A stretch of 64,000 nt of DNA, taken from assembly GCA_964352355.1 (NCBI GenBank), contig CAYGRT010000013.1, positions 6,828-70,827 on the forward strand. Reading direction: 5' to 3'. Source of the DNA: an uncultured Pseudohongiella sp. (GTDB lineage Bacteria > Pseudomonadota > Gammaproteobacteria > Pseudomonadales > Pseudohongiellaceae). Shown here piece after piece: positions 10,863 to 18,225 of this stretch. The notes under the pieces were generated by a model. That model searched no databases and had not been told where the DNA came from. It was given only the letters and a program-made list of their open reading frames with translations. The translations under genes and the position numbers were made by a program. The first letter of the stretch is position 1. Every line of letters begins with the position of its first letter.

Positions 10863-11615
10863 CTACCAAGGAATGGGCTTGCCATCCCATGCCAAAAACT
10901 GAATACGCTTCTCGGTGCTAAGACTCTTTATAATTTTTAGTAATTGTTCCGCTACAAAATCCGGCTGAAACAATTTGTCATCCTTGACGTATTTCTGAAA
11001 CGGTTTAGACAAAGGCGTATCGGTAGTGCCCGGGTGAAACGCAAGAAATCGCACTTTTCTGGCGCTGCGTGCGACTTCGATGGATACCGACTTTAAACAC
11101 ATGTTGAGCGCAGCCTTGGACGCTCTATAGCTATACCACCCACCTCTGCCGTTGTCTTCAATGCTACCAATGCGAGCGCTGAAAACCGTCACAATGCAGT
11201 TTGAATCCCGCTTGAACACAGGCTTCATGTGTTTAAGCCATAGCATTGGAATAAGCGTGTTGACTTGATGCACATGCAGATAATTCTCTTCTGCAAAATC
11301 CGCAAGGGAGCGTTCAGGTTGCATTACGTCATCATGTAAAATGCCATTACAAATGAACAACATCTCCAAATTAGTAAGTTTCGCCTTGCTTATCTGAGCA
11401 CACACTTCAGCTATGGATTCCTCATCATAATCGAGTTCGATCCAATGTAGCCGCGGTTGACTATCGCTTGGCCTATGGCGGCTGATAGCAATCACCTGAC
11501 GGGTCTGGTCCGCCTCTAGCAGCTGCGCAATTAGCGCCTGTGCGATTTTACTACTGGCACCGACGATTATCGCAGTCGGCGCCTGCGGGGAAATTTTAGC
11601 CAAGTTCAATTGCAT
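10863..11615 (-). CDS. Short-chain dehydrogenase/reductase (SDR)
   Basis: Motifs VGASSKIAQAL (glycine-rich NAD(P) site) and YSYRASKAAL (YxxxK). I prefer the ATG at 11615 over the TTG at 11624. Confidence 0.75.
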   Translation of the reverse strand: MQLNLAKISPQAPTAIIVGASSKIAQALIAQLLEADQTRQVIAISRHRPSDSQPRLHWIELDYDEESIAEVCAQISKAKLTNLEMLFICNGILHDDVMQPERSLADFAEENYLHVHQVNTLIPMLWLKHMKPVFKRDSNCIVTVFSARIGSIEDNGRGGWYSYRASKAALNMCLKSVSIEVARSARKVRFLAFHPGTTDTPLSKPFQKYVKDDKLFQPDFVAEQLLKIIKSLSTEKRIQFLAWDGKPIPW

Positions 11616-11620
11616 GGAAG

Positions 11621-12028
11621 TCAAAGAGCACAGCCAGAGGATTTATCTGCCCTGCAGGGCTCGCAGCGGCGTTTTCCTGTGATCAACCAAGAAATAGTGT
11701 AGCGATGCTTAGCGAAAATCCTATAGCCAATATCAGCAAAAAATCGAATTACCGGCCATCGCAATACAACAAGCCACGGTTTTTTACCCACGGCACGCCA
11801 CACTGCAAGCGTCACATCCAATCCGAGCAGCATAGTGCCGTCTGCAGTCCTAGCGTGTAGCAAGCGATCGGCTGCCTTAGGGTCTATCTCGGGATATCGA
11901 ATCGAAAAATCTTCCTGATGAATATCCTCCAATTGCAACAAGCTCTGAGTATCTAATTCTCTCAATTGGTTCATTTCAGCAACGCATAATGGGCAGTAGC
12001 TGTCGAAAAATACGGTTAATTTTTGCAA
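11621..12028 (-). CDS. DCC-family thiol-disulfide oxidoreductase (DUF393)
   Basis: N-terminal FFDSYCPLC motif and length of about 135 aa. TTG start. Confidence 0.65.
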   Translation of the reverse strand: MQKLTVFFDSYCPLCVAEMNQLRELDTQSLLQLEDIHQEDFSIRYPEIDPKAADRLLHARTADGTMLLGLDVTLAVWRAVGKKPWLVVLRWPVIRFFADIGYRIFAKHRYTISWLITGKRRCEPCRADKSSGCAL

Positions 12029-12045
12029 AACTTAGATCCTATAAA

Positions 12046-12510
12046 TCAATCATTAACTAGAAGTACGGTAACAAGAAAATGTAACGCGACAACAACAGCG
12101 CTGAGCACTAATCGCAACGCAGGGTAGCCTTGTGATACGCCTTGGTAGAGTATATTTTTAGTTGCCAACTCAACACCGAGCACAGCCAAGTAGCCCGCGC
12201 TAAGCAATAACAAGCACCCGAAAAGAGAGTATTCGGCTAAACCCAGTGCCATCCAAACCACAAGGGCTATCCCGTTAGAAAACACCAGCAAGCACAGCGA
12301 TAAAGCGCTGGCCTGTTTGCCCAGTAACAACCCCCAAAGTGAGCCGCTTAAGAACGCGAGAATCACTGCGCTGTAATAGCTAAACCACAATGCACCAGCG
12401 AGATCAAATAAAGATTGGTCAAGATAGGTGAGCACGGCGGTGAAAATAAAAGGCAGTAAGCCGGCAAACCCCAAACTCGTAATCAATTGTGTCTGCCGAT
12501 TTTGATTCAT
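12046..12510 (-). CDS. Small polytopic membrane protein (DUF3429-like)
   Basis: 154 aa with 4-5 hydrophobic helices. The family name is from memory only. Confidence 0.45.
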   Translation of the reverse strand: MNQNRQTQLITSLGFAGLLPFIFTAVLTYLDQSLFDLAGALWFSYYSAVILAFLSGSLWGLLLGKQASALSLCLLVFSNGIALVVWMALGLAEYSLFGCLLLLSAGYLAVLGVELATKNILYQGVSQGYPALRLVLSAVVVALHFLVTVLLVND

Positions 12511-12621
12511 GATAATACTACGCTGAAACCTTTATTTCGGTTCTTCACGGTCCTTAAGACCTGTTAACAATTACCTAACGCTGAGGTATGCTGAGAGTAG
12601 ACTTTTTAAAAGGACGCACCT

Positions 12622-13749
12622 ATGCCCAGCCGTCGAAATTTATTGCAAGCTATGGCTTTGCTACCCGCCGTGAGCGCATGCTCAATCACCACCCCCGAAG
12701 CAACCCAGCCCAAGCGATTCTATACACCCTCAGGGCTTCCACTTCGCGCTGTCAACATTGATGAAAGTCGGGTCATTCGCACGGTTACAGGGCTTCGGCC
12801 TTATCGCCGCGAAGGTTTTGTTGTCGAAGCCGAGCGGCGTGGCGAAAAAACAGTGGTGCACAACTACGGCCATGGCGGCGGAGGCATAACGCTATCTTGG
12901 GGCACCTCTCATCAAGCGATGGAAATGGCGCTGCAAACTGGCCAACAACAATGTGCGGTGATTGGCTGCGGAGTGATGGGACTGACCACTGCACGTCTCA
13001 TGCAAGACCAAGGTTGGGATGTCACGATTTACGCCAAATCTTTACCGCCGTATACCACATCCAATATCGCAGGAGGGCAATGGTCTCCCGCGTCTGTGTT
13101 TGAAGAAGGCTTTGACACGCCAAGGTTTAAAGCTCAATTTGAAGAAGCCATGGCGATCTCCTATCGCTACTATCAAAATTTAGTCGGGCCCAAGTATGGG
13201 GTCAGGTGGATCAGTAATTATCAGCTGTCAGACACCCCAAGGCCAACTGATGACTTGGTTCACAATTACGCTTCGATGTATCCACAGTTGAAGGTTTTGG
13301 GGCCTAATGAACATCCTTTTCCAGTCGCCTATGCGACCCACTACGACACTATGCTGATTGAACCAGCCACTTTCCTGACCGCACTAATGCAAGATTTTTA
13401 CGGGGCTGGCGGGGTTATCGAAGTTAAAGAGTTTTCATCAGACGCTGAAATTCAATTACTGACTGAGCCTGTGGTGTTTAACTGTGCCGGGCTTGGCGCG
13501 CGCCAACTCTTTGGCGATGAAAAATTGTTTCCCATTAAGGGGCAGCTGAGTTTCGTATTGCCCCAAGCCGAGGTCAATTACATCACCATCACAGATGGAA
13601 CCTACATGTTTCCCCGTAGCGATGGCATCTTGCTGGGTGGCACGTTTGAGTACAACAATTGGGATTTAACACCTGATGCGGATGTAACTAATCGTATTCT
13701 GCGGGAGCATCAGGCGTTCTTCGGGGCAATGAATGACCCATGGCGCTAA
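12622..13749 (+). CDS. Tat-exported lipoprotein, FAD-dependent oxidase of the D-amino-acid-oxidase type with permuted motif order
   Basis: Twin-arginine motif SRRNLL and lipobox VSAC (Cys20). DAAO signature VVHNYGHGGGGITLSWG at aa 78-93. GxGxxG (VIGCGVMG) at aa 113-120. Further DAAO-like blocks follow: IAGGQWSP, VFNCAGLGA, PIKGQL and LLGGTFEYNNW. Confidence 0.75.
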   Translation: MPSRRNLLQAMALLPAVSACSITTPEATQPKRFYTPSGLPLRAVNIDESRVIRTVTGLRPYRREGFVVEAERRGEKTVVHNYGHGGGGITLSWGTSHQAMEMALQTGQQQCAVIGCGVMGLTTARLMQDQGWDVTIYAKSLPPYTTSNIAGGQWSPASVFEEGFDTPRFKAQFEEAMAISYRYYQNLVGPKYGVRWISNYQLSDTPRPTDDLVHNYASMYPQLKVLGPNEHPFPVAYATHYDTMLIEPATFLTALMQDFYGAGGVIEVKEFSSDAEIQLLTEPVVFNCAGLGARQLFGDEKLFPIKGQLSFVLPQAEVNYITITDGTYMFPRSDGILLGGTFEYNNWDLTPDADVTNRILREHQAFFGAMNDPWR

Positions 13750-13756
13750 TCAAAGA

Positions 13757-13800
13757 TAAAAAAAAGCGGCATGGAGAGGGGGATAAATTGCCATGCCGCT
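13757..13800 (-). terminator. Rho-independent terminator between convergent genes
   Basis: Perfect 10-bp stem agcggcatgg (13765-13774) / ccatgccgct (13791-13800). The A-run at 13758-13765 gives a U-tract on the minus strand, downstream of the peroxiredoxin gene. Confidence 0.7.
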
Positions 13801-13828
13801 TAAGGAGCCTATTAAATTTGGTAGGGAG

Positions 13829-14353
13829 TTAGGCTCCGCGGAGATACTCGAGCATAGTGTCAACATCACTGCATTCAAACGGATCAGTATCGGCGTTGTC
13901 GCACTTACCGGCTTCAGCGAATAACTTTACAACTTTGCCATCCTCAACCACCATGGCATAGCGCCAAGACCGATCACCAAAACCAAGGTTTTCTTTCTTT
14001 ACAAGCATATCCATGCCTTTGGTGAAATGGCCATTACCATCTGGCAGCATCTTGACCTTGCTTACGCCTAGCTGCTTGCTCCACTGATACATAGAGAAAG
14101 CGTCGTTAACGCTCAGGCAGTAAACCTCATCAATGCCCAAGGCTTTCAGGTTATCGTATTTCGCTTCATAACCCGGCAAATGAGTACTACTGCAAGTGGG
14201 AGTGAAAGCGCCGGGGAGTGCAACAATAATGACCTTCTTGCCAGCAAAAATGTCATCAGTGCTCACGTCCTGCCATCGGAACGGATTATCACCGCCAACA
14301 GCTTCGTCTCTTACGCGGGTCTTAAAAACTACATTAGGAACAGATTGAGTCAT
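13829..14353 (-). CDS. Peroxiredoxin, Prx5 subfamily
   Basis: Motif LPGAFTPTCS with the peroxidatic Cys. The length (174 aa) and overall pattern are typical of Prx5-type peroxiredoxins. Confidence 0.85.
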   Translation of the reverse strand: MTQSVPNVVFKTRVRDEAVGGDNPFRWQDVSTDDIFAGKKVIIVALPGAFTPTCSSTHLPGYEAKYDNLKALGIDEVYCLSVNDAFSMYQWSKQLGVSKVKMLPDGNGHFTKGMDMLVKKENLGFGDRSWRYAMVVEDGKVVKLFAEAGKCDNADTDPFECSDVDTMLEYLRGA

Positions 14354-14611: not shown

Positions 14612-15979
14612 ATGAAGTTGTCTGCTCACCGATTATTACCTGTATTTGCTAGCGTTCTGACCTGCTCTTTATCAACGTTTGCGAGCGCTCAGACAGATAG
14701 CCCTACGTTCTACGCCGATGCACTGCCGCTGTTTGAGAAAAACTGCGTTGCCTGCCATCAGCCCAATGGACCTAAAGTGGGTGGAATCACAGCCCCCATG
14801 TCTCTGCTGGACTACTCTCAGGCAAAGCTGTGGGCGCCAATGATCAAGAATGCGCTGATAACCGGCTATATGCCGCCTTGGGGTGCCCACGAGAGACACC
14901 GCGGAGAGTTTAAAGGAGAGCGCTATATCGACAAGGCTGAAAAGGATCTGCTGATCGCTTGGGTTGATGCAGGCGCCTTAGAAGGCAATCCGAACGATGC
15001 CGCAAAGGATGATGGTTTGCTGGCGAGCAGCGGCGGCACTACCCTGCCAGAATCTGGCTGGTGGATAGGCGACCCTGACCTAATTGTGCAGTTTGCGACC
15101 CCGGTCTATGTGCCAGACGATGTCGTAGATTGGCAACCCACCATCGAATTGCCTGTGCCCGAAGGTGCCCACACCGAACCCAAATGGATTTCCAAAGCCG
15201 AACTGGTGCCAGGGGGGCCTTGGGTTCATCACATTGTATCCAGTCACATGGGTGTGGGAGTTCCAGGCCGCGGCCCCTTTACCTATCCTGAAGGCTGGGG
15301 CGTACTCATGCCCGAAAACCCATTTATTACCGCCAACATGCATTACCACAAAGATGCAGGAGAAGGCACAGCGGTTACAGATCTAACCAAAGCGGGATTT
15401 GTATTTTATGACGAGGGGGACGTGATCGACTACGTTGTGGAAACGAATCTTTTGCCTCATCGTGGTTGGACTATCCCTGCTGGCGACCCAAATTTCGAAG
15501 TTAATAATACCTTCGATATCGAGGAAGACATTTATCTATTGTCTATGGGTCCCCATATGCACTATCGCGGCAAAGCGATGCGCTACGAGTTGGAGTACCC
15601 AGACGGTGAGCAAGAAACCTTACTGTGGGTTCCAAAATACGATTTTAACTGGCAGTTTCTCTATGAATACGAAGAGCCTAAACTCATTCCTGCCGGTTCA
15701 AAGCTGCATATGAGCTGGTGGTTCGATAACTCCAGAGAGAACCGTTACAATCCTGACCCAACTGCCGATGTGGTCTACGGCCCTGAAACAACCGATGAAA
15801 TGGCCAATGCTCGTATCTACTACGCTCCAGTAACCCCTCGGGGAATCGTGGTGGGTCAGCCCATTCCGGAAGATGTGCTAGAGCAGGCGAGAAAAGAGGA
15901 TGAAACGCGCCGCGCTAACACCAAGCTTCTCGACCCATCAAACAATGATTTTTCCTGGATACCTGATGAATCACACTAA
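14612..15979 (+). CDS. Periplasmic c-type haem domain fused to a PHM/DBH-like copper monooxygenase domain
   Basis: Signal peptide. Haem-c site CVACH (C45, C48, H49) in a context like planctomycete-type cytochrome c (FYADALPLFEKNCVACH). Copper-ligand-like pattern VHH (H206/H207), MHYH (H244/H246), PHMHYRGK (H315/H317) and TTDEMANARIYY (M397). Confidence 0.65.
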   Translation: MKLSAHRLLPVFASVLTCSLSTFASAQTDSPTFYADALPLFEKNCVACHQPNGPKVGGITAPMSLLDYSQAKLWAPMIKNALITGYMPPWGAHERHRGEFKGERYIDKAEKDLLIAWVDAGALEGNPNDAAKDDGLLASSGGTTLPESGWWIGDPDLIVQFATPVYVPDDVVDWQPTIELPVPEGAHTEPKWISKAELVPGGPWVHHIVSSHMGVGVPGRGPFTYPEGWGVLMPENPFITANMHYHKDAGEGTAVTDLTKAGFVFYDEGDVIDYVVETNLLPHRGWTIPAGDPNFEVNNTFDIEEDIYLLSMGPHMHYRGKAMRYELEYPDGEQETLLWVPKYDFNWQFLYEYEEPKLIPAGSKLHMSWWFDNSRENRYNPDPTADVVYGPETTDEMANARIYYAPVTPRGIVVGQPIPEDVLEQARKEDETRRANTKLLDPSNNDFSWIPDESH

Positions 15980-16212: not shown

Positions 16213-18225
16213 CTAGGCAGCAGGCTGCCAATCTTTAATCCGAAGTTTCACTACGTCCATGTCGTGCTTGCACACTCCTGCTCTGGCGATAAGTTTGATT
16301 TCACACAGATCGCAGCGAACGCATTCTTTAAAATCAATAGCAGGGCCTCGGATTGCGCCCGTGGGACAAGCATGCTCACAAACGCTGCACACTTGGCACT
16401 GCTCCACTCGCTTTATTTTAAAAGGCGAAACAAAAGATACTACCCCTAATGCTGCACCCAGAGGGCAAGCGTAGCGACAATAAAACCTTGGTACCAAAGT
16501 TGCTCCGATCAAGAACACAAGAAGGATTACCCAAAGAGTCATCGATTGACTGAAATAAAATACCGTTCCAAACGGCTCGAAGTATTGGAATAAGCTGAGT
16601 TCGCTATAAGTCAGCGCCATCACTATCAAGAAGGCTAACACTGCGTACTTTAAGTACAGCGCCATGTCATGGATTTTTTGCGGCACTTTTTGCTGCCATC
16701 GCTTAGGCGCGAAGCGAGTAATGAAATCTTGCAACGCGCCAAATGGGCAAAGTGAAGAACAGAATACCCGCCCCCAAAACAAAGTAGTCACAAGGGTAAA
16801 CACGATAATTAAAAGTAGCGGCAAGTCATTAAGAAACAGGACCGGCCCCTGTTTTATGCCATTGGTGATATGAGAAACGGACACAAAACCACCATCAAAA
16901 AACCCAAGATACAACAGTGTATAAGTGAGTGTTGCCCAACGTAATGTGGCATTTTTCTTTAAAAAAGACGTTATTACTAATGTCAACAACACAAGCATAG
17001 CTATCACTTCAAGCCACGGCGCATCACTGATCAGGCTTGCTAAGGCCCCCTCTTCGCCAAGATCTGAATAGTCAGCAGTGGGTGCGGGCAAGTACTGCTG
17101 GGGTATCGGGTCACCGTTTGACAAAGCGAGAGCAAGGACAGGCACGACATATTCGATTTCAAGAAAGTTTTCAAATTCGCCTCGGGTTTCACTGTCATCG
17201 TAGAGAATTTTAAATGGTCTGCTGAGATCGACCGCTGGATCAAGCACTATGGCGCCGGCGAATCTTACTTGATCAGCAATCAAGCCATTATCAGCGCTAC
17301 CGGCATAGACAAATCTGTTGCGACTGATGGTGTATCGAATACCATCTTGCTCAACTGCGAGACGTTCTTGTCGAAACGGTCGTTCAGCATCACCATCTAT
17401 GCCTATCAAAAATAGCTTGCCATCCGATACTCGATTACTAGCTTCTCTGTCCGCAATTGAATAGTCCTCAACTCCAAGCACTAACTCGCCCAAGCCATCA
17501 TGGCCGATAAACGCCAGATCAAGTTCGAGTGTCGTTTGGTCAGGTTGGGGAATTGTAAAATCAAGCACTAGGCCTTCGGATTTCAATTGCGACCAGTTTT
17601 TCTCACCATAGTAATTAAGAGCAATAGCATCTGCGGCTGCGCCAGAAACGACTGCTGAATCATTCATGTAAGCAGTCGCAACCCGGCGACCCGCATTACG
17701 AATTCCTCTCGCGACAGCCCAACTGGTAACGGTTGCGCGAGAGACTCCGTCTATATCTCTACCAACTCGAAAGCCATCAGTAATACTCTTGCCGTCAAAC
17801 TGATTGGGGAAGCGTTCCGTCGCTAAAAAATCTCCTCGAATGCTCTTATAGGATTCACGATAAAAGAGCACTTGGATTGAAGTGATGGAGCCGTCCAATC
17901 CCATACCTACAAGCACGTTGATTGGCGCGCTGTAGCCCACCTCTTCCGGAGGTAAATCGGCCGTTTCAAACACATAACCCAGTAACTGAGCATCTCCCGA
18001 ATCCACTGCACGGTATGCACGAATCACTGGAGGATTGCCAGATTTCTCAGAGAAATCTGTAGCCTCTGGAAACAAATCCGCTAATAGCTCCTGTGATACA
18101 GAGATAGCTGACTGACCATAGGAGACACTCGTTAAGGCCCATAACGAGCAAACGGCAAGGGTAAAAGCAAACTTCGCAACAATCTGAGAAAATGATGCAG
18201 GTAAGACGTTGGTGACAAGGGACAT
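16213..18225 (-). CDS. NosR/NirI-family membrane FMN-binding iron-sulfur protein
   Basis: Periplasmic FMN_bind-like motif DGVSRATVTS. TM helices flanked by CxxxCP motifs (FCSSLCPFGALQD, YCRYACPLGAAL). C-terminal ferredoxin motif CQVCSVCEHACP plus a second Cys cluster, CVRCDLCE...C. Confidence 0.7.
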   Translation of the reverse strand: MSLVTNVLPASFSQIVAKFAFTLAVCSLWALTSVSYGQSAISVSQELLADLFPEATDFSEKSGNPPVIRAYRAVDSGDAQLLGYVFETADLPPEEVGYSAPINVLVGMGLDGSITSIQVLFYRESYKSIRGDFLATERFPNQFDGKSITDGFRVGRDIDGVSRATVTSWAVARGIRNAGRRVATAYMNDSAVVSGAAADAIALNYYGEKNWSQLKSEGLVLDFTIPQPDQTTLELDLAFIGHDGLGELVLGVEDYSIADREASNRVSDGKLFLIGIDGDAERPFRQERLAVEQDGIRYTISRNRFVYAGSADNGLIADQVRFAGAIVLDPAVDLSRPFKILYDDSETRGEFENFLEIEYVVPVLALALSNGDPIPQQYLPAPTADYSDLGEEGALASLISDAPWLEVIAMLVLLTLVITSFLKKNATLRWATLTYTLLYLGFFDGGFVSVSHITNGIKQGPVLFLNDLPLLLIIVFTLVTTLFWGRVFCSSLCPFGALQDFITRFAPKRWQQKVPQKIHDMALYLKYAVLAFLIVMALTYSELSLFQYFEPFGTVFYFSQSMTLWVILLVFLIGATLVPRFYCRYACPLGAALGVVSFVSPFKIKRVEQCQVCSVCEHACPTGAIRGPAIDFKECVRCDLCEIKLIARAGVCKHDMDVVKLRIKDWQPAA

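What the first reader, a model, noticed from the sequence alone, without database searches (positions are those of the whole stretch)
12622..13749. Circularly permuted D-amino-acid-oxidase-type flavoprotein exported as a Tat lipoprotein
In canonical DAAO-type oxidases (mammalian DAAO, as I recall the sequence) the GxGxxG Rossmann motif is at the extreme N-terminus. The signature ...TGFRPVRP...VIHNYGHGGYGLTIHWG is at the extreme C-terminus. Here the order is inverted.

The protein starts with a twin-arginine signal (SRRNLL) and a lipobox (VSAC, Cys20). The mature protein then opens with VTGLRPYRREGFVVEAERRGEKTVVHNYGHGGGGITLSWGTS (aa 55-96, nt 12784-12909). Only after that come VIGCGVMG (aa 113-120), IAGGQWSP, VFNCAGLGA, FPIKGQL and LLGGTFEYNNWDL. 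The protein then ends with no second GHGG motif.

This is the pattern expected of a circular permutation of the fold, not a duplication or fusion. Tat export fits a pre-folded FAD holoenzyme. A lipid-anchored periplasmic oxidase of this type would generate H2O2 outside the cytoplasm, for example on D-amino acids from peptidoglycan turnover. I am not aware of a description of this permuted form.
Basis: partly seen in the sequence, partly recalled or inferred. Interest (0 to 1): 0.65.

Follow-up and report, generated by a model that had tools for sequence, protein, structure and literature searches.

The report
Circularly permuted, exported DAAO-family flavoprotein
This gene encodes a D-amino-acid-oxidase-type FAD enzyme whose last ~60 residues have moved to the front of the chain (a natural circular permutation) behind a Tat/lipoprotein export signal. 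It belongs to a large bacterial family that databases label only "FAD-dependent oxidoreductase" and whose rearranged order I could not find described.

Summary
ORF 12622..13749 (+, 375 aa) matches the Pfam DAO model in two non-collinear pieces: aa 49-99 match HMM 301-350, and aa 112-368 match HMM 3-298. It aligns the same way to solved DAAO/DDO chains. Against a doubled copy of a canonical bacterial relative it gives one continuous alignment across the C-to-N junction, which is the classical permutation test. AlphaFold secondary-structure order is a cyclic rotation of the canonical order. Two independent metagenome assemblies carry the gene without indels, so it is not an artefact. The permuted order is shared by thousands of proteins in at least 593 species-level genomes across many phyla. 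The RR motif and lipobox Cys are invariant in the query's clade. Other clades are Tat-only or lack a signal, so permutation and export are separable. The DAAO substrate-carboxylate Arg and the HxYGHGG motif are invariant, and Tyr228's equivalent is mostly kept. An amino-acid oxidising reaction in the cell envelope is therefore likely but untested. Whether O2 or a cytochrome c is the acceptor is open. No paper, PDB entry or NCBIfam model describing the permutation was found. Periplasmic Tat-exported DAAO-like flavoproteins have been noted before. Verdict: real, a new variant of a known kind, moderately interesting.

The parts
12610..12614 (+). Shine-Dalgarno-like AAGGA, 7 nt upstream of the ATG
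   Evidence: Read directly from the sequence.
12622..13749 (+). Whole gene: 375-aa permuted DAAO-family flavoprotein precursor, stop codon included
   Evidence: ORF list and translation. Pfam DAO E 1.9e-33. The start agrees with homologues that begin MTSRR.
12622..12678 (+). Tat-type signal peptide, aa 1-19. It has the twin arginine R4 R5 (nt 12631-12636) in SRRNLLQ, the hydrophobic stretch AMALLPAV, and the lipobox V-S-A.
   Evidence: R4 and R5 are invariant in 45 sequences. Motif statistics over 120 homologues. Export itself is inferred.
12679..12681 (+). Cys20, the predicted lipid-modified first residue of the mature protein. Residue +2 is Ser.
   Evidence: C20 is invariant. Position -1 is A/G/S in 107 of 114 and +2 is Asp in only 1 of 114. 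Lipidation and outer-membrane sorting are inferred from the E. coli rules.
12682..12756 (+). Tether and lead-in segment, aa 21-45. Aa 21-30 are low-confidence linker. Aa 33-45 (YTPSGLPLRAV) are conserved and correspond to the canonical loop just before the last beta-meander.
   Evidence: pLDDT is about 50 for aa 11-30 and 90 for aa 31-40. S37, G38 and V44 are invariant. The alignment to the doubled canonical relative starts at aa 40.
12757..12933 (+). Transposed block, aa 46-104, equal to the canonical C-terminal module. It has three strands (51-62, 67-73, 76-82) and a helix (85-104). It carries R59 (= DAAO Arg283) and H80-N-Y-G-H-G-G86 (G86 = DAAO Gly313).
   Evidence: Pfam DAO HMM 301-350. 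Pig DAAO 270-325 and DDO 280-333. R59 and HxYGHGG are conserved in 91-92 of 92 diverse members. pLDDT is 89-97.
12934..12948 (+). Short connector, aa 105-109 (TGQQQ), that joins the old C-terminal helix to the old N-terminal strand beta1
   Evidence: The alignments to canonical proteins break here. Its length varies among homologues. The model is confident on both sides.
12949..13746 (+). Core, aa 110-375, equal to canonical residues about 1-268. It has the Rossmann beta-alpha-beta with G115-x-G117-x-x-G120 (nt 12964-12981), the TTSNIAGGQWSP flavin/substrate loop, the substrate-binding domain with Y328 (= DAAO Tyr228) and invariant R332, and a final helix 353-368. It ends in DPWR.
   Evidence: Pfam DAO HMM 3-298. 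DDO 13-266. Residue conservation. Foldseek hits to DAAO/DDO.

Best explanation

Shown:
- The module that closes the FAD-binding domain in canonical enzymes (three strands plus the helix that starts at HxYGHGG, canonical residues about 270-335) now comes first.
- It is joined by a 5-residue connector to the Rossmann beta1.
- The chain ends where the canonical surface loop at about residue 268 would be.
- The predicted fold is the normal DAAO fold.
- The family is large, old and probably of single origin, with a small canonical bacterial clade as nearest relative.

Inferred from conserved motifs:
- The precursor binds FAD and folds in the cytoplasm.
- It is exported by the Tat pathway through SRRNLL.
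- It is cleaved and lipidated at Cys20.
- Having no Asp at +2, it is tethered to a membrane facing the periplasm, probably the outer membrane.

Inferred from active-site conservation:
- It binds the alpha-carboxylate of a free amino acid with R59 and Y328.
- It transfers a hydride to FAD, giving an imino acid that hydrolyses to a 2-oxo acid plus ammonium.
- D-amino acids are the most likely substrates.
- The flavin is most likely reoxidised by O2 to H2O2, because this gene has no operonic cytochrome c.
- The likely role is use or removal of D-amino acids in the cell envelope of a marine or biofilm gammaproteobacterium.
For: Permutation:
- (Pfam HMM 3-298 then 301-350, in reversed order).
- (PDB DAAO/DDO alignments).
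- (one 208-bit alignment across the junction of doubled P0233, against 143 + 52 bits in two pieces on the single copy).
- (secondary-structure order E-E-E-H moved from the end to the start).
- (a sequential Foldseek aligns about 275 columns with TM about 0.6 for the query, against about 355 columns with TM about 0.84 for the canonical relative).

Real gene:
- (two independent contigs, no indels).
- (7348 hits, at least 593 species genomes, 471 clusters at E<=1e-30).

Export:
-.

Chemistry:
- (R59 = R283, G86 = G313, Y328 = Y228).
- (R59 in 92/92, H80/Y82/G83 in 92/92, Y328 in 71/92, R332 in 90/92).
- DDO-specific Arg216 and Arg237 are replaced by T322 and F342.
- Rhizobial homologues sit directly upstream of a TPP-dependent enzyme, which typically acts on 2-oxo acids.
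- A canonical relative sits among amino-acid metabolism genes.

Oxidase rather than dehydrogenase:
- No small cytochrome c gene lies next to the gene in 80 related loci.
- In the MAO-type family, Tat enzymes without an adjacent cytochrome c mostly react fast with O2 (PMC12224317).

Single origin:
- (the permuted sequences form one split in 60/100 NJ bootstraps; the bacterial clades separate from eukaryotic DAAO/DDO in 94/100).
Against: - No experiment, no RNA evidence and no signal-peptide predictor were available.
- Substrate identity is unknown. The DAAO lid loop is absent and Tyr224 is not conserved. An extra invariant Arg (R332) of unknown role lies near the active site.
- In the query's own clade a haem-c/copper-domain protein is linked to the gene in 9 of 13 loci. 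It is directly downstream in 2 of them.
- A Kozakia homologue is followed by a cytochrome c gene.
- A dehydrogenase mode is therefore possible.
- Seven of 114 close homologues have R, Q or L at lipobox position -1.
- The NJ support for a single origin is only moderate.
Confidence: 0.65

Rival explanations
1. Same permuted, exported enzyme, but it is physiologically a dehydrogenase. The reduced flavin passes electrons to a periplasmic c-type cytochrome and on to the respiratory chain or to a copper enzyme, not to O2. This is what happens with the Tat-exported NicA2 and Pnao.
For: A haem-c plus Cu-monooxygenase-like protein (14612..15979) is linked to the gene in 9 of 13 loci of this clade. It lies directly downstream on the same strand in L002 and L011 with a 70-nt gap. 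The Kozakia baliensis homologue (Tat signal KRRQLL) is followed after 6 nt by a Sec-signal mono-haem cytochrome c. PMC12224317 shows that a Tat signal plus an adjacent cytochrome c predicts dehydrogenase behaviour.
Against: In the window the haem protein is separated from the gene by an opposite-strand peroxiredoxin gene and is not a simple cytochrome c. No cytochrome c neighbour occurs in the other 68 loci from other phyla. The precedent comes from a different flavoprotein family (MAO type).
Confidence: 0.25
2. The enzyme oxidises something other than free D-amino acids. Candidates are glycine, sarcosine or N-substituted amino acids, an amino-acid-derived metabolite, or an L-amino or 2-hydroxy acid.
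For: The substrate pocket differs from mammalian DAAO. The lid loop is missing, Tyr224 aligns with Thr324, Leu51 aligns with Gln153, and there is an extra invariant Arg332. Family members sit in varied contexts. The best NCBIfam hit is glycine oxidase ThiO, although it scores 70 bits against a cut-off of 250.8.
Against: The closest solved relatives by sequence and fold are all DAAO/DDO, well ahead of glycine and sarcosine oxidases (E 1e-32 to 1e-17 against >0.01; Foldseek 1e-16 against 1e-9). The carboxylate-binding Arg is invariant and Tyr228's equivalent is usually kept.
Confidence: 0.2
3. The order is an artefact (misassembly or frameshift), or it is the remnant of a tandem duplication or fusion rather than a true permutation.
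For: None found. It was considered because a single metagenomic contig could in principle be chimeric.
Against: Contigs from two independent runs cover 12300-14100 with 0 and 4 substitutions and no indels or joints. Thousands of homologues of 370-390 aa have the same order. There is only one GHGG and one Rossmann motif, and no tandem form occurs among 378 collected relatives. The C-terminus stops exactly where the N-terminal block picks up in the canonical sequence.
Confidence: 0.01

Closest known systems
Canonical D-amino-acid oxidase and D-aspartate oxidase (pig and human DAAO 1an9/2du8, Rhodotorula 1c0k, Rasamsonia 7ct4, human DDO 6rkf)
   Same: Best sequence matches (E 2.4e-32 to 1e-17) and best fold matches. 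The same FAD-binding motifs are present. The same substrate-carboxylate Arg (R283 = R59), Tyr228 (= Y328) and Gly313 (= G86) are present. Like DAAO, it has Phe where DDO has Arg237.
   Different: The chain order is rotated: canonical residues about 270-335 precede residue 1. It has an N-terminal Tat/lipoprotein signal instead of a C-terminal peroxisomal signal. It has no active-site lid loop. An extra invariant Arg332-x-Asp334 is present. Identity is only 23-26%.
Small clade of canonical-order bacterial DAAO-like proteins (P0233, P0257, P0285-P0303; 320-353 aa, no signal peptide)
   Same: Nearest relatives overall (E about 1e-52, 37-41% identity). They share the family-specific motifs TTSN/D-A, HNYGHGGGGITLSWG and PRSD. 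They group with the permuted family against eukaryotic DAAO/DDO in 94/100 bootstraps.
   Different: Collinear with Pfam DAO positions 2-353. Apparently cytoplasmic and rare (about 20 clusters, mostly single sequences). The loop where the permuted proteins have their termini is the least confident part of the P0233 model (pLDDT 67 at residues 261-270).
[quoted passage not shown]
   Same: Same broad family, same predicted Tat export of a folded flavoprotein, and the same proposed link to D-amino-acid-containing material in the periplasm.
   Different: That paper mentions neither a permutation nor lipoproteins. I could not obtain those sequences to see whether they are permuted. The permuted genes from Sphingomonas-like genomes in my set are not next to a PvdM-like gene.
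NicA2 / Pnao and related Tat-exported flavoprotein amine dehydrogenases (PMC12224317)
   Same: Works alike in outline: an FAD enzyme folded in the cytoplasm, exported by Tat, oxidising a C-N bond in the periplasm. The adjacent-cytochrome-c criterion from that work can be applied here.
   Different: They belong to a different flavoprotein family (MAO type) with canonical chain order. Here no operonic small cytochrome c is present in the window.
Glycine oxidase ThiO and D-amino-acid dehydrogenase DadA
   Same: Same DAO superfamily fold and the same kind of reaction.
   Different: Scores are far below the family cut-offs: ThiO 70 against 250.8 bits, DadA 24-30 against 383-494 bits. Structural similarity is weaker. 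Both have canonical chain order.

Membership tests
DAO superfamily (Pfam PF01266, FAD dependent oxidoreductase) | Significant match to the family HMM above the gathering score | tested here: met
   116.9 bits against a cut-off of 27.9, E 1.9e-33.
DAO superfamily (Pfam PF01266) | Collinear domain order: Rossmann beta-alpha-beta at the N-terminus and the HxxGHGG module at the C-terminus | tested here: not met
   HMM 301-350 matches aa 49-99 and HMM 3-298 matches aa 112-368. The canonical relative P0233 matches positions 2-353 collinearly.
DAAO/DDO subfamily (EC 1.4.3.3 / 1.4.3.1 type) | Closest relatives by sequence and by fold are DAAO/DDO rather than glycine/sarcosine oxidases or DadA | tested here: met
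   phmmer against PDB: 17 DAAO/DDO sequences at E 2e-32 to 6e-15, with the next family at E>0.003. The Foldseek top 33 hits are all DAAO/DDO.
DAAO/DDO subfamily | Substrate-binding residues: Arg283 (alpha-carboxylate), Tyr228, and Gly313 in the H-N-Y-G-H-G-G motif | tested here: met
   R59, Y328 and G86 align to them. Conservation in 92 diverse permuted members is 92/92, 71/92 and 91/92 respectively.
DAAO/DDO subfamily | FAD binding and oxidation of D-amino acids with O2 to give H2O2 | not testable with these tools
   Needs purified protein. Only the motifs GxGxxG (aa 115-120) and HxYGHGG are seen.
D-aspartate oxidase specificity | Arg216 and Arg237 (human DDO) that bind the side-chain carboxylate | tested here: not met
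   They align with T322 and F342 (with 6rkf chain numbering offset by 9).
Tat-exported lipoproteins (Tat/SPase II class) | Twin-arginine motif (S/T-R-R-x-F-L-K-like) in the n-region, followed by a hydrophobic stretch | tested here: met
   S-R-R-N-L-L-Q at aa 3-9, followed by AMALLPAV. RR is invariant and present in 114 of 120 close homologues. No TatP/SignalP run was possible.
Tat-exported lipoproteins (Tat/SPase II class) | Lipobox [LVI][ASTVI][GAS]-C at the end of the signal | tested here: met
   V-S-A-C20. Cys is invariant in 45 sequences. Position -1 is A/G/S in 107 of 114 and the RR-to-Cys distance is 16 in 107 of 114.
Tat-exported lipoproteins (Tat/SPase II class) | Demonstrated Tat-dependent export and lipid modification | not testable with these tools
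   Experimental only.
Cytochrome-c-dependent Tat-exported flavoprotein dehydrogenases (NicA2-like; functional class, PMC12224317) | Tat signal plus an adjacent, co-oriented gene for a Sec-exported cytochrome c | tested here: inconclusive
   The Tat signal is present. In the window the nearest haem-c protein is a 455-aa fusion protein 863 nt downstream, beyond an opposite-strand gene. It is adjacent in L002 and L011. A true small cytochrome c is adjacent only in the Kozakia homologue. None is present in 68 loci of other phyla.
Glycine oxidase ThiO (TIGR02352) / D-amino-acid dehydrogenase DadA (NF001933, NF009074) | Score above the curated NCBIfam cut-off | tested here: not met
   ThiO 70.3 against 250.8 bits; DadA 24.2 against 383 and 30.5 against 494 bits.

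The most novel reading that the evidence does not exclude
This is the first recognised natural circular permutation of the classical DAAO (GR2-type) flavoenzyme fold. It arose once from a canonical bacterial DAAO. It now defines a large, unnamed family found in Gammaproteobacteria, Alphaproteobacteria, Acidobacteriota, Gemmatimonadota, Verrucomicrobiota, Actinomycetota and other phyla. Many of its members, including this one, would be Tat-exported, membrane-tethered enzymes that oxidise free D-amino acids in the cell envelope. Such a periplasmic route for D-amino-acid use or detoxification has not been characterised biochemically.
Probability: 0.35. Interest if true: 0.7.

Novelty: new variant of a known kind. 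Interest (0 to 1): 0.55.

Why it matters
DAAO is a textbook flavoenzyme used in biotechnology and studied in neurobiology. A widespread natural permutant shows that the FAD-domain-closing module can be supplied from either end of the chain. It gives protein engineers a natural template with new termini. It also explains why domain-based annotation sees these proteins only as a truncated DAO domain plus an odd N-terminus.

Biologically, D-amino acids are abundant in peptidoglycan debris and in marine dissolved organic nitrogen. An envelope-located, lipid-anchored DAAO-type enzyme in common marine and soil lineages would be an unrecognised step in their turnover. It would also be an extracytoplasmic source of 2-oxo acids and ammonium, and possibly of H2O2.

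Practically, thousands of database entries now called 'FAD-dependent oxidoreductase' could be given a family definition.

Tried and rejected
- Misassembly or frameshift: rejected (homologues).
- Duplication or fusion remnant: rejected. There is one GHGG and one Rossmann motif, and no tandem intermediates among 378 relatives.
- Conserved operon partner across phyla: none found by clustering the +/-4 neighbours of 80 loci. Only clade-level synteny is seen (Prx5, the haem-c/Cu protein, and hslUV in sphingomonads).
- Exact look-up of the window protein in the assembly index: not on record.
- RNA evidence: no RNA run is listed.
- Coordinates of the AlphaFold model were not available in the sandbox, so no CE-CP or TM-align -cp superposition could be made. 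As a substitute I compared secondary-structure order and ran a Foldseek control with the canonical relative.
- Literature: eight searches for a permuted DAAO or a periplasmic or Tat DAAO found nothing on the permutation. PA4548, recalled from memory as a possible member, gave no useful paper.
- PvdM link: I looked for PvdM-type neighbours of sphingomonad and caulobacter-like members and saw none in crude ORF calls. Two short contigs of distant members were uninformative.
- Annotated regions of Niveispirillum and Nonomuraea carried no gene table.
Full report
**1. The observation**

The window holds an ORF at 12622..13749 on the + strand, 375 aa. An AAGGA ribosome-binding site lies 7 nt upstream.

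- SRRNLL at aa 3-8.
- VSAC with Cys20.
- VTGLRPYRR...VVHNYGHGGGGITLSWGTS at aa 55-96.
- VIGCGVMG at aa 113-120.
- The later DAAO-like motifs.

There is a single GHGG-type motif. The gene stands alone between opposite-strand genes. Upstream and divergent lies a DUF3429 gene. Downstream and convergent lies a Prx5-type peroxiredoxin gene.

**2. Is it a circular permutation?**

- Pfam DAO (PF01266, E 1.9e-33) matches in two stretches. The main one is aa 112-368 on HMM positions 3-298 of 353.
- Submitted alone, aa 39-108 match HMM positions 301-350 through aa 49-99.
- Against solved structures the same pattern holds. Query 109-362 aligns with human D-aspartate oxidase 6rkf 13-266, and query 52-102 aligns with 6rkf 280-333.
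- Query 111-349 aligns with pig DAAO 3-249, and query 46-98 aligns with pig DAAO 270-325.

I then ran the classical doubled-sequence test with the closest canonical-order relatives found (P0233 and P0257, 339 aa).
- On the single sequences the query aligns in two non-collinear pieces (143 + 52 bits).
- On the doubled sequence one continuous alignment of 208 bits runs from P0233 residue 269 through its C-terminus into residue 246 of the second copy.
- The query's C-terminus (aa 353-375) therefore corresponds to the canonical helix just before the point where the query's N-terminal block (from aa 40) takes over. This is a clean rotation with nothing duplicated.

The AlphaFold model built with 45 homologues is confident (pLDDT 88.3, pTM 0.85; only the signal peptide and tether are low).
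- Its secondary-structure order is E-E-E-H (51-104) followed by the Rossmann E-H-E and the rest.
- In the model of canonical P0233 (pLDDT 91.6) the same E-E-E-H (280-338) comes last.
- The P0233 loop where the permuted proteins have their ends is that model's least confident stretch (pLDDT 67 at 261-270).

Foldseek is a sequential aligner.
- It finds only DAAO/DDO structures as top hits for the query, with about 275 aligned columns and TM about 0.6.
- The canonical control gives about 355 columns and TM about 0.84 against the same entries.
- The shortfall corresponds to the transposed block.
- No PDB entry with the permuted order appeared.

**3. Not an artefact, and not rare**

Contigs of two independent public runs (biofilm metagenomes) cover 12300-14100 with 0 and 4 substitutions and no indels or joints.

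The word-indexed search returned 7348 significant hits. The best 120 are all 58-100% identical, mostly full length, and 361-417 aa long.

The exhaustive search of 50%-identity representatives found 4992 hits at E<=1e-3 and 471 at E<=1e-30. Among the best 149, 90 are full-length permuted proteins and only two are canonical.

They come from Pseudomonadales/Pseudohongiella, Woeseiaceae, Acidobacteriota, Gemmatimonadota, Verrucomicrobiota (including cultured Luteolibacter pohnpeiensis), sphingomonads, Hyphomonadaceae, Eremiobacterota and Dadabacteria.

Replicons of cultured Rhizobium, Bradyrhizobium, Mesorhizobium, Kozakia, Niveispirillum, Nonomuraea and Mycobacterium lentiflavum also carry permuted members. 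These are annotated 'FAD-dependent oxidoreductase'.

The window itself most likely comes from a Pseudohongiellaceae-like gammaproteobacterium. The best named relatives are 60-70% identical.

**4. Export signal**

In 45 aligned homologues R4, R5 and C20 are invariant.

Among the 120 closest homologues:
- 114 have RR followed by a Cys.
- The spacing is exactly 16 in 107 of them.
- Position -1 is A, G or S in 107 of 114.
- Position +2 is Asp only once.

This is the signature of a Tat signal ending in a lipobox. It predicts a lipid-anchored periplasmic protein. By the E. coli +2 rule it would be sorted to the outer membrane; that last step is an inference.

Across the diverse representatives, 24 of 90 are Tat plus lipobox, 36 are Tat only, and 28 have no recognisable signal. 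Some of the 28 are truncated gene calls, but many start 10-25 residues before the first strand and look complete. The rhizobial plasmid proteins (353 aa) also lack a signal. The permutation is therefore not a consequence of export, and export was probably added in some lineages.

**5. What it probably does**

From the alignments to pig DAAO:
- R59 corresponds to Arg283, which holds the substrate alpha-carboxylate.
- Y328 corresponds to Tyr228.
- G86 corresponds to Gly313 in HNYGHGG.

In 92 diverse permuted sequences R59 and the H-x-Y-G-H-G-G residues are essentially invariant, and Y328 is kept in 71.

The two arginines that give DDO its preference for acidic substrates align with T322 and F342, so the pocket is DAAO-like rather than DDO-like. 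The mammalian lid loop is absent, as it is in yeast DAAO. An additional Arg (R332) is invariant and unexplained.

NCBIfam models for ThiO and DadA score far below their cut-offs.

Context elsewhere is compatible with amino-acid oxidation to 2-oxo acids.
- In Rhizobium and Bradyrhizobium plasmids the gene is sandwiched between an FAD-binding oxidoreductase and a thiamine-pyrophosphate enzyme.
- In Kozakia it lies in an operon with serine hydrolases of the beta-lactamase fold, an alpha/beta hydrolase and a canonical DadA-like enzyme, near a TonB receptor.
- The canonical relative P0233 sits beside ornithine cyclodeaminase, an aminotransferase and a DDAH-like gene.

My best reading is an FAD enzyme folded in the cytoplasm, exported by Tat, tethered by a lipid, and oxidising free (probably D-) amino acids in the envelope.

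**6. Oxidase or dehydrogenase?**

Work on the unrelated MAO-type family showed that a Tat signal plus an adjacent cytochrome c gene marks cytochrome-c-dependent dehydrogenases. Tat enzymes without such a neighbour mostly react fast with O2 (PMC12224317).

Applying that rule gives a mixed picture.
- No small cytochrome c neighbours the gene in the 80 related loci.
- The Kozakia homologue is followed after 6 nt by a Sec-signal mono-haem cytochrome c.
- In the query's clade a 450-aa haem-c/copper-domain protein is linked in 9 of 13 loci. It is directly downstream in L002 and L011.

I therefore favour O2 as acceptor for this gene but give the dehydrogenase alternative about one chance in four.

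**7. Origin**

I rearranged the permuted sequences in silico to canonical order. I aligned 101 of them with 23 canonical bacterial relatives and with three eukaryotic DAAO/DDO sequences rebuilt from the alignments.

In neighbour-joining trees:
- The permuted proteins form one split in the full data and in 60 of 100 bootstraps.
- Bacterial clades separate from the eukaryotic enzymes in 94 of 100.

This is a rough analysis. It suggests, but does not prove, a single origin with the small canonical clade (about 20 clusters) as nearest relative. No tandem intermediate was seen.

**8. Comparison with what is known, and novelty**

By sequence, fold and active site the protein belongs with DAAO/DDO. 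It fails one defining feature of the family as modelled, namely the collinear order.

The full-text searches found no description of a permuted DAAO. There is no solved structure with this order and no specific NCBIfam model.

[quoted passage not shown] That paper mentions neither permutation nor lipidation, and I could not check whether those proteins are permuted.

I rate this a new variant of a known kind. It is real, widespread and unrecognised in annotation, but the chemistry is probably conventional and remains untested. The library searched is limited to open-access papers, so an earlier description cannot be excluded.

Noticed in passing
window 14612..15979 (+): A 455-aa secreted protein with a Sec-type signal and one haem-c motif (CVACH), followed by a His/Met-rich domain. 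That domain weakly resembles the C-terminal domain of copper type II ascorbate-dependent monooxygenases (Pfam PF03712, E 1.2e-4, below cut-off). It has no NCBIfam model and no PDB sequence relative. It is linked to the permuted DAO gene in 9 of 13 Pseudomonadales/Pseudohongiella-like loci and lies directly downstream in L002 and L011.
   Followed up: partly
window 16213..18225 (-): A NosR/NapH-like membrane protein (FMN_bind plus Fer4_5 domains; NosR model 169 bits, below cut-off). It is conserved next to the haem-c/copper protein in WIN, L002, L003, L008 and L011. It may be the electron donor of that copper protein.
   Followed up: no
window 13829..14353 (-): A Prx5-type peroxiredoxin (Redoxin, PGAFTPTCS) with no signal peptide, convergent with the DAO gene. 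It is in the same position or nearby in 6 related loci. This would fit H2O2 production by the neighbour, but it may be plain synteny.
   Followed up: partly
L083 (Kozakia baliensis plasmid pKB14400_3) 757-10606: An operon of two beta-lactamase-fold serine hydrolases, a canonical DadA-like FAD enzyme, an alpha/beta hydrolase, and a Tat-signal permuted DAO homologue (408 aa) followed 6 nt later by a Sec-signal cytochrome c. A CocE/NonD hydrolase and a TonB receptor lie alongside. It looks like a periplasmic (D-)peptide or amino-acid degradation module with a cytochrome-c-linked flavoprotein. In this homologue the Tyr228 equivalent is not conserved.
   Followed up: partly
L081 5482-9708 and L082 5363-9690 (Rhizobium ruizarguesonis and Bradyrhizobium elkanii plasmids): A conserved three-gene unit: an FAD-binding oxidoreductase, a signal-less permuted DAO homologue (353 aa), and a thiamine-pyrophosphate enzyme. 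It lies on conjugative plasmids near azurin/multicopper oxidase genes and transposases.
   Followed up: no
protein P0234 (1042 aa): A permuted DAO domain (HNYGYGG variant) forms the C-terminal 310 residues of a 1042-aa protein. The 720-residue N-terminal part has no Pfam match.
   Followed up: no
proteins P0233, P0257, P0285-P0303; locus L085: The canonical-order sister clade is small and known only from metagenomes. P0233 is encoded beside ornithine cyclodeaminase, an aminotransferase and a DDAH-like gene. Its loop at the future cut site is the least confident part of its model.
   Followed up: partly
close homologues of the window protein: Seven of 114 have R, Q or L at lipobox position -1 (for example LSRC, LTQC) while the Cys is still kept at the same distance from RR. 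Either the lipobox is more tolerant here or the Cys has another role.
   Followed up: no
window 10863..12510 (-): A divergent upstream cluster: DUF3429 membrane protein, DCC1-like thiol-disulfide oxidoreductase, and a short-chain dehydrogenase. The DUF3429 and DCC1 pair recurs upstream of the DAO gene in L003.
   Followed up: no
literature: PMC12502724: A catalogue of proteins released by Asaia bogorensis lists a 'D-amino acid oxidase' (A0A060QKK3). Asaia belongs to the same family as Kozakia, so this may be an exported permuted member.
   Followed up: no
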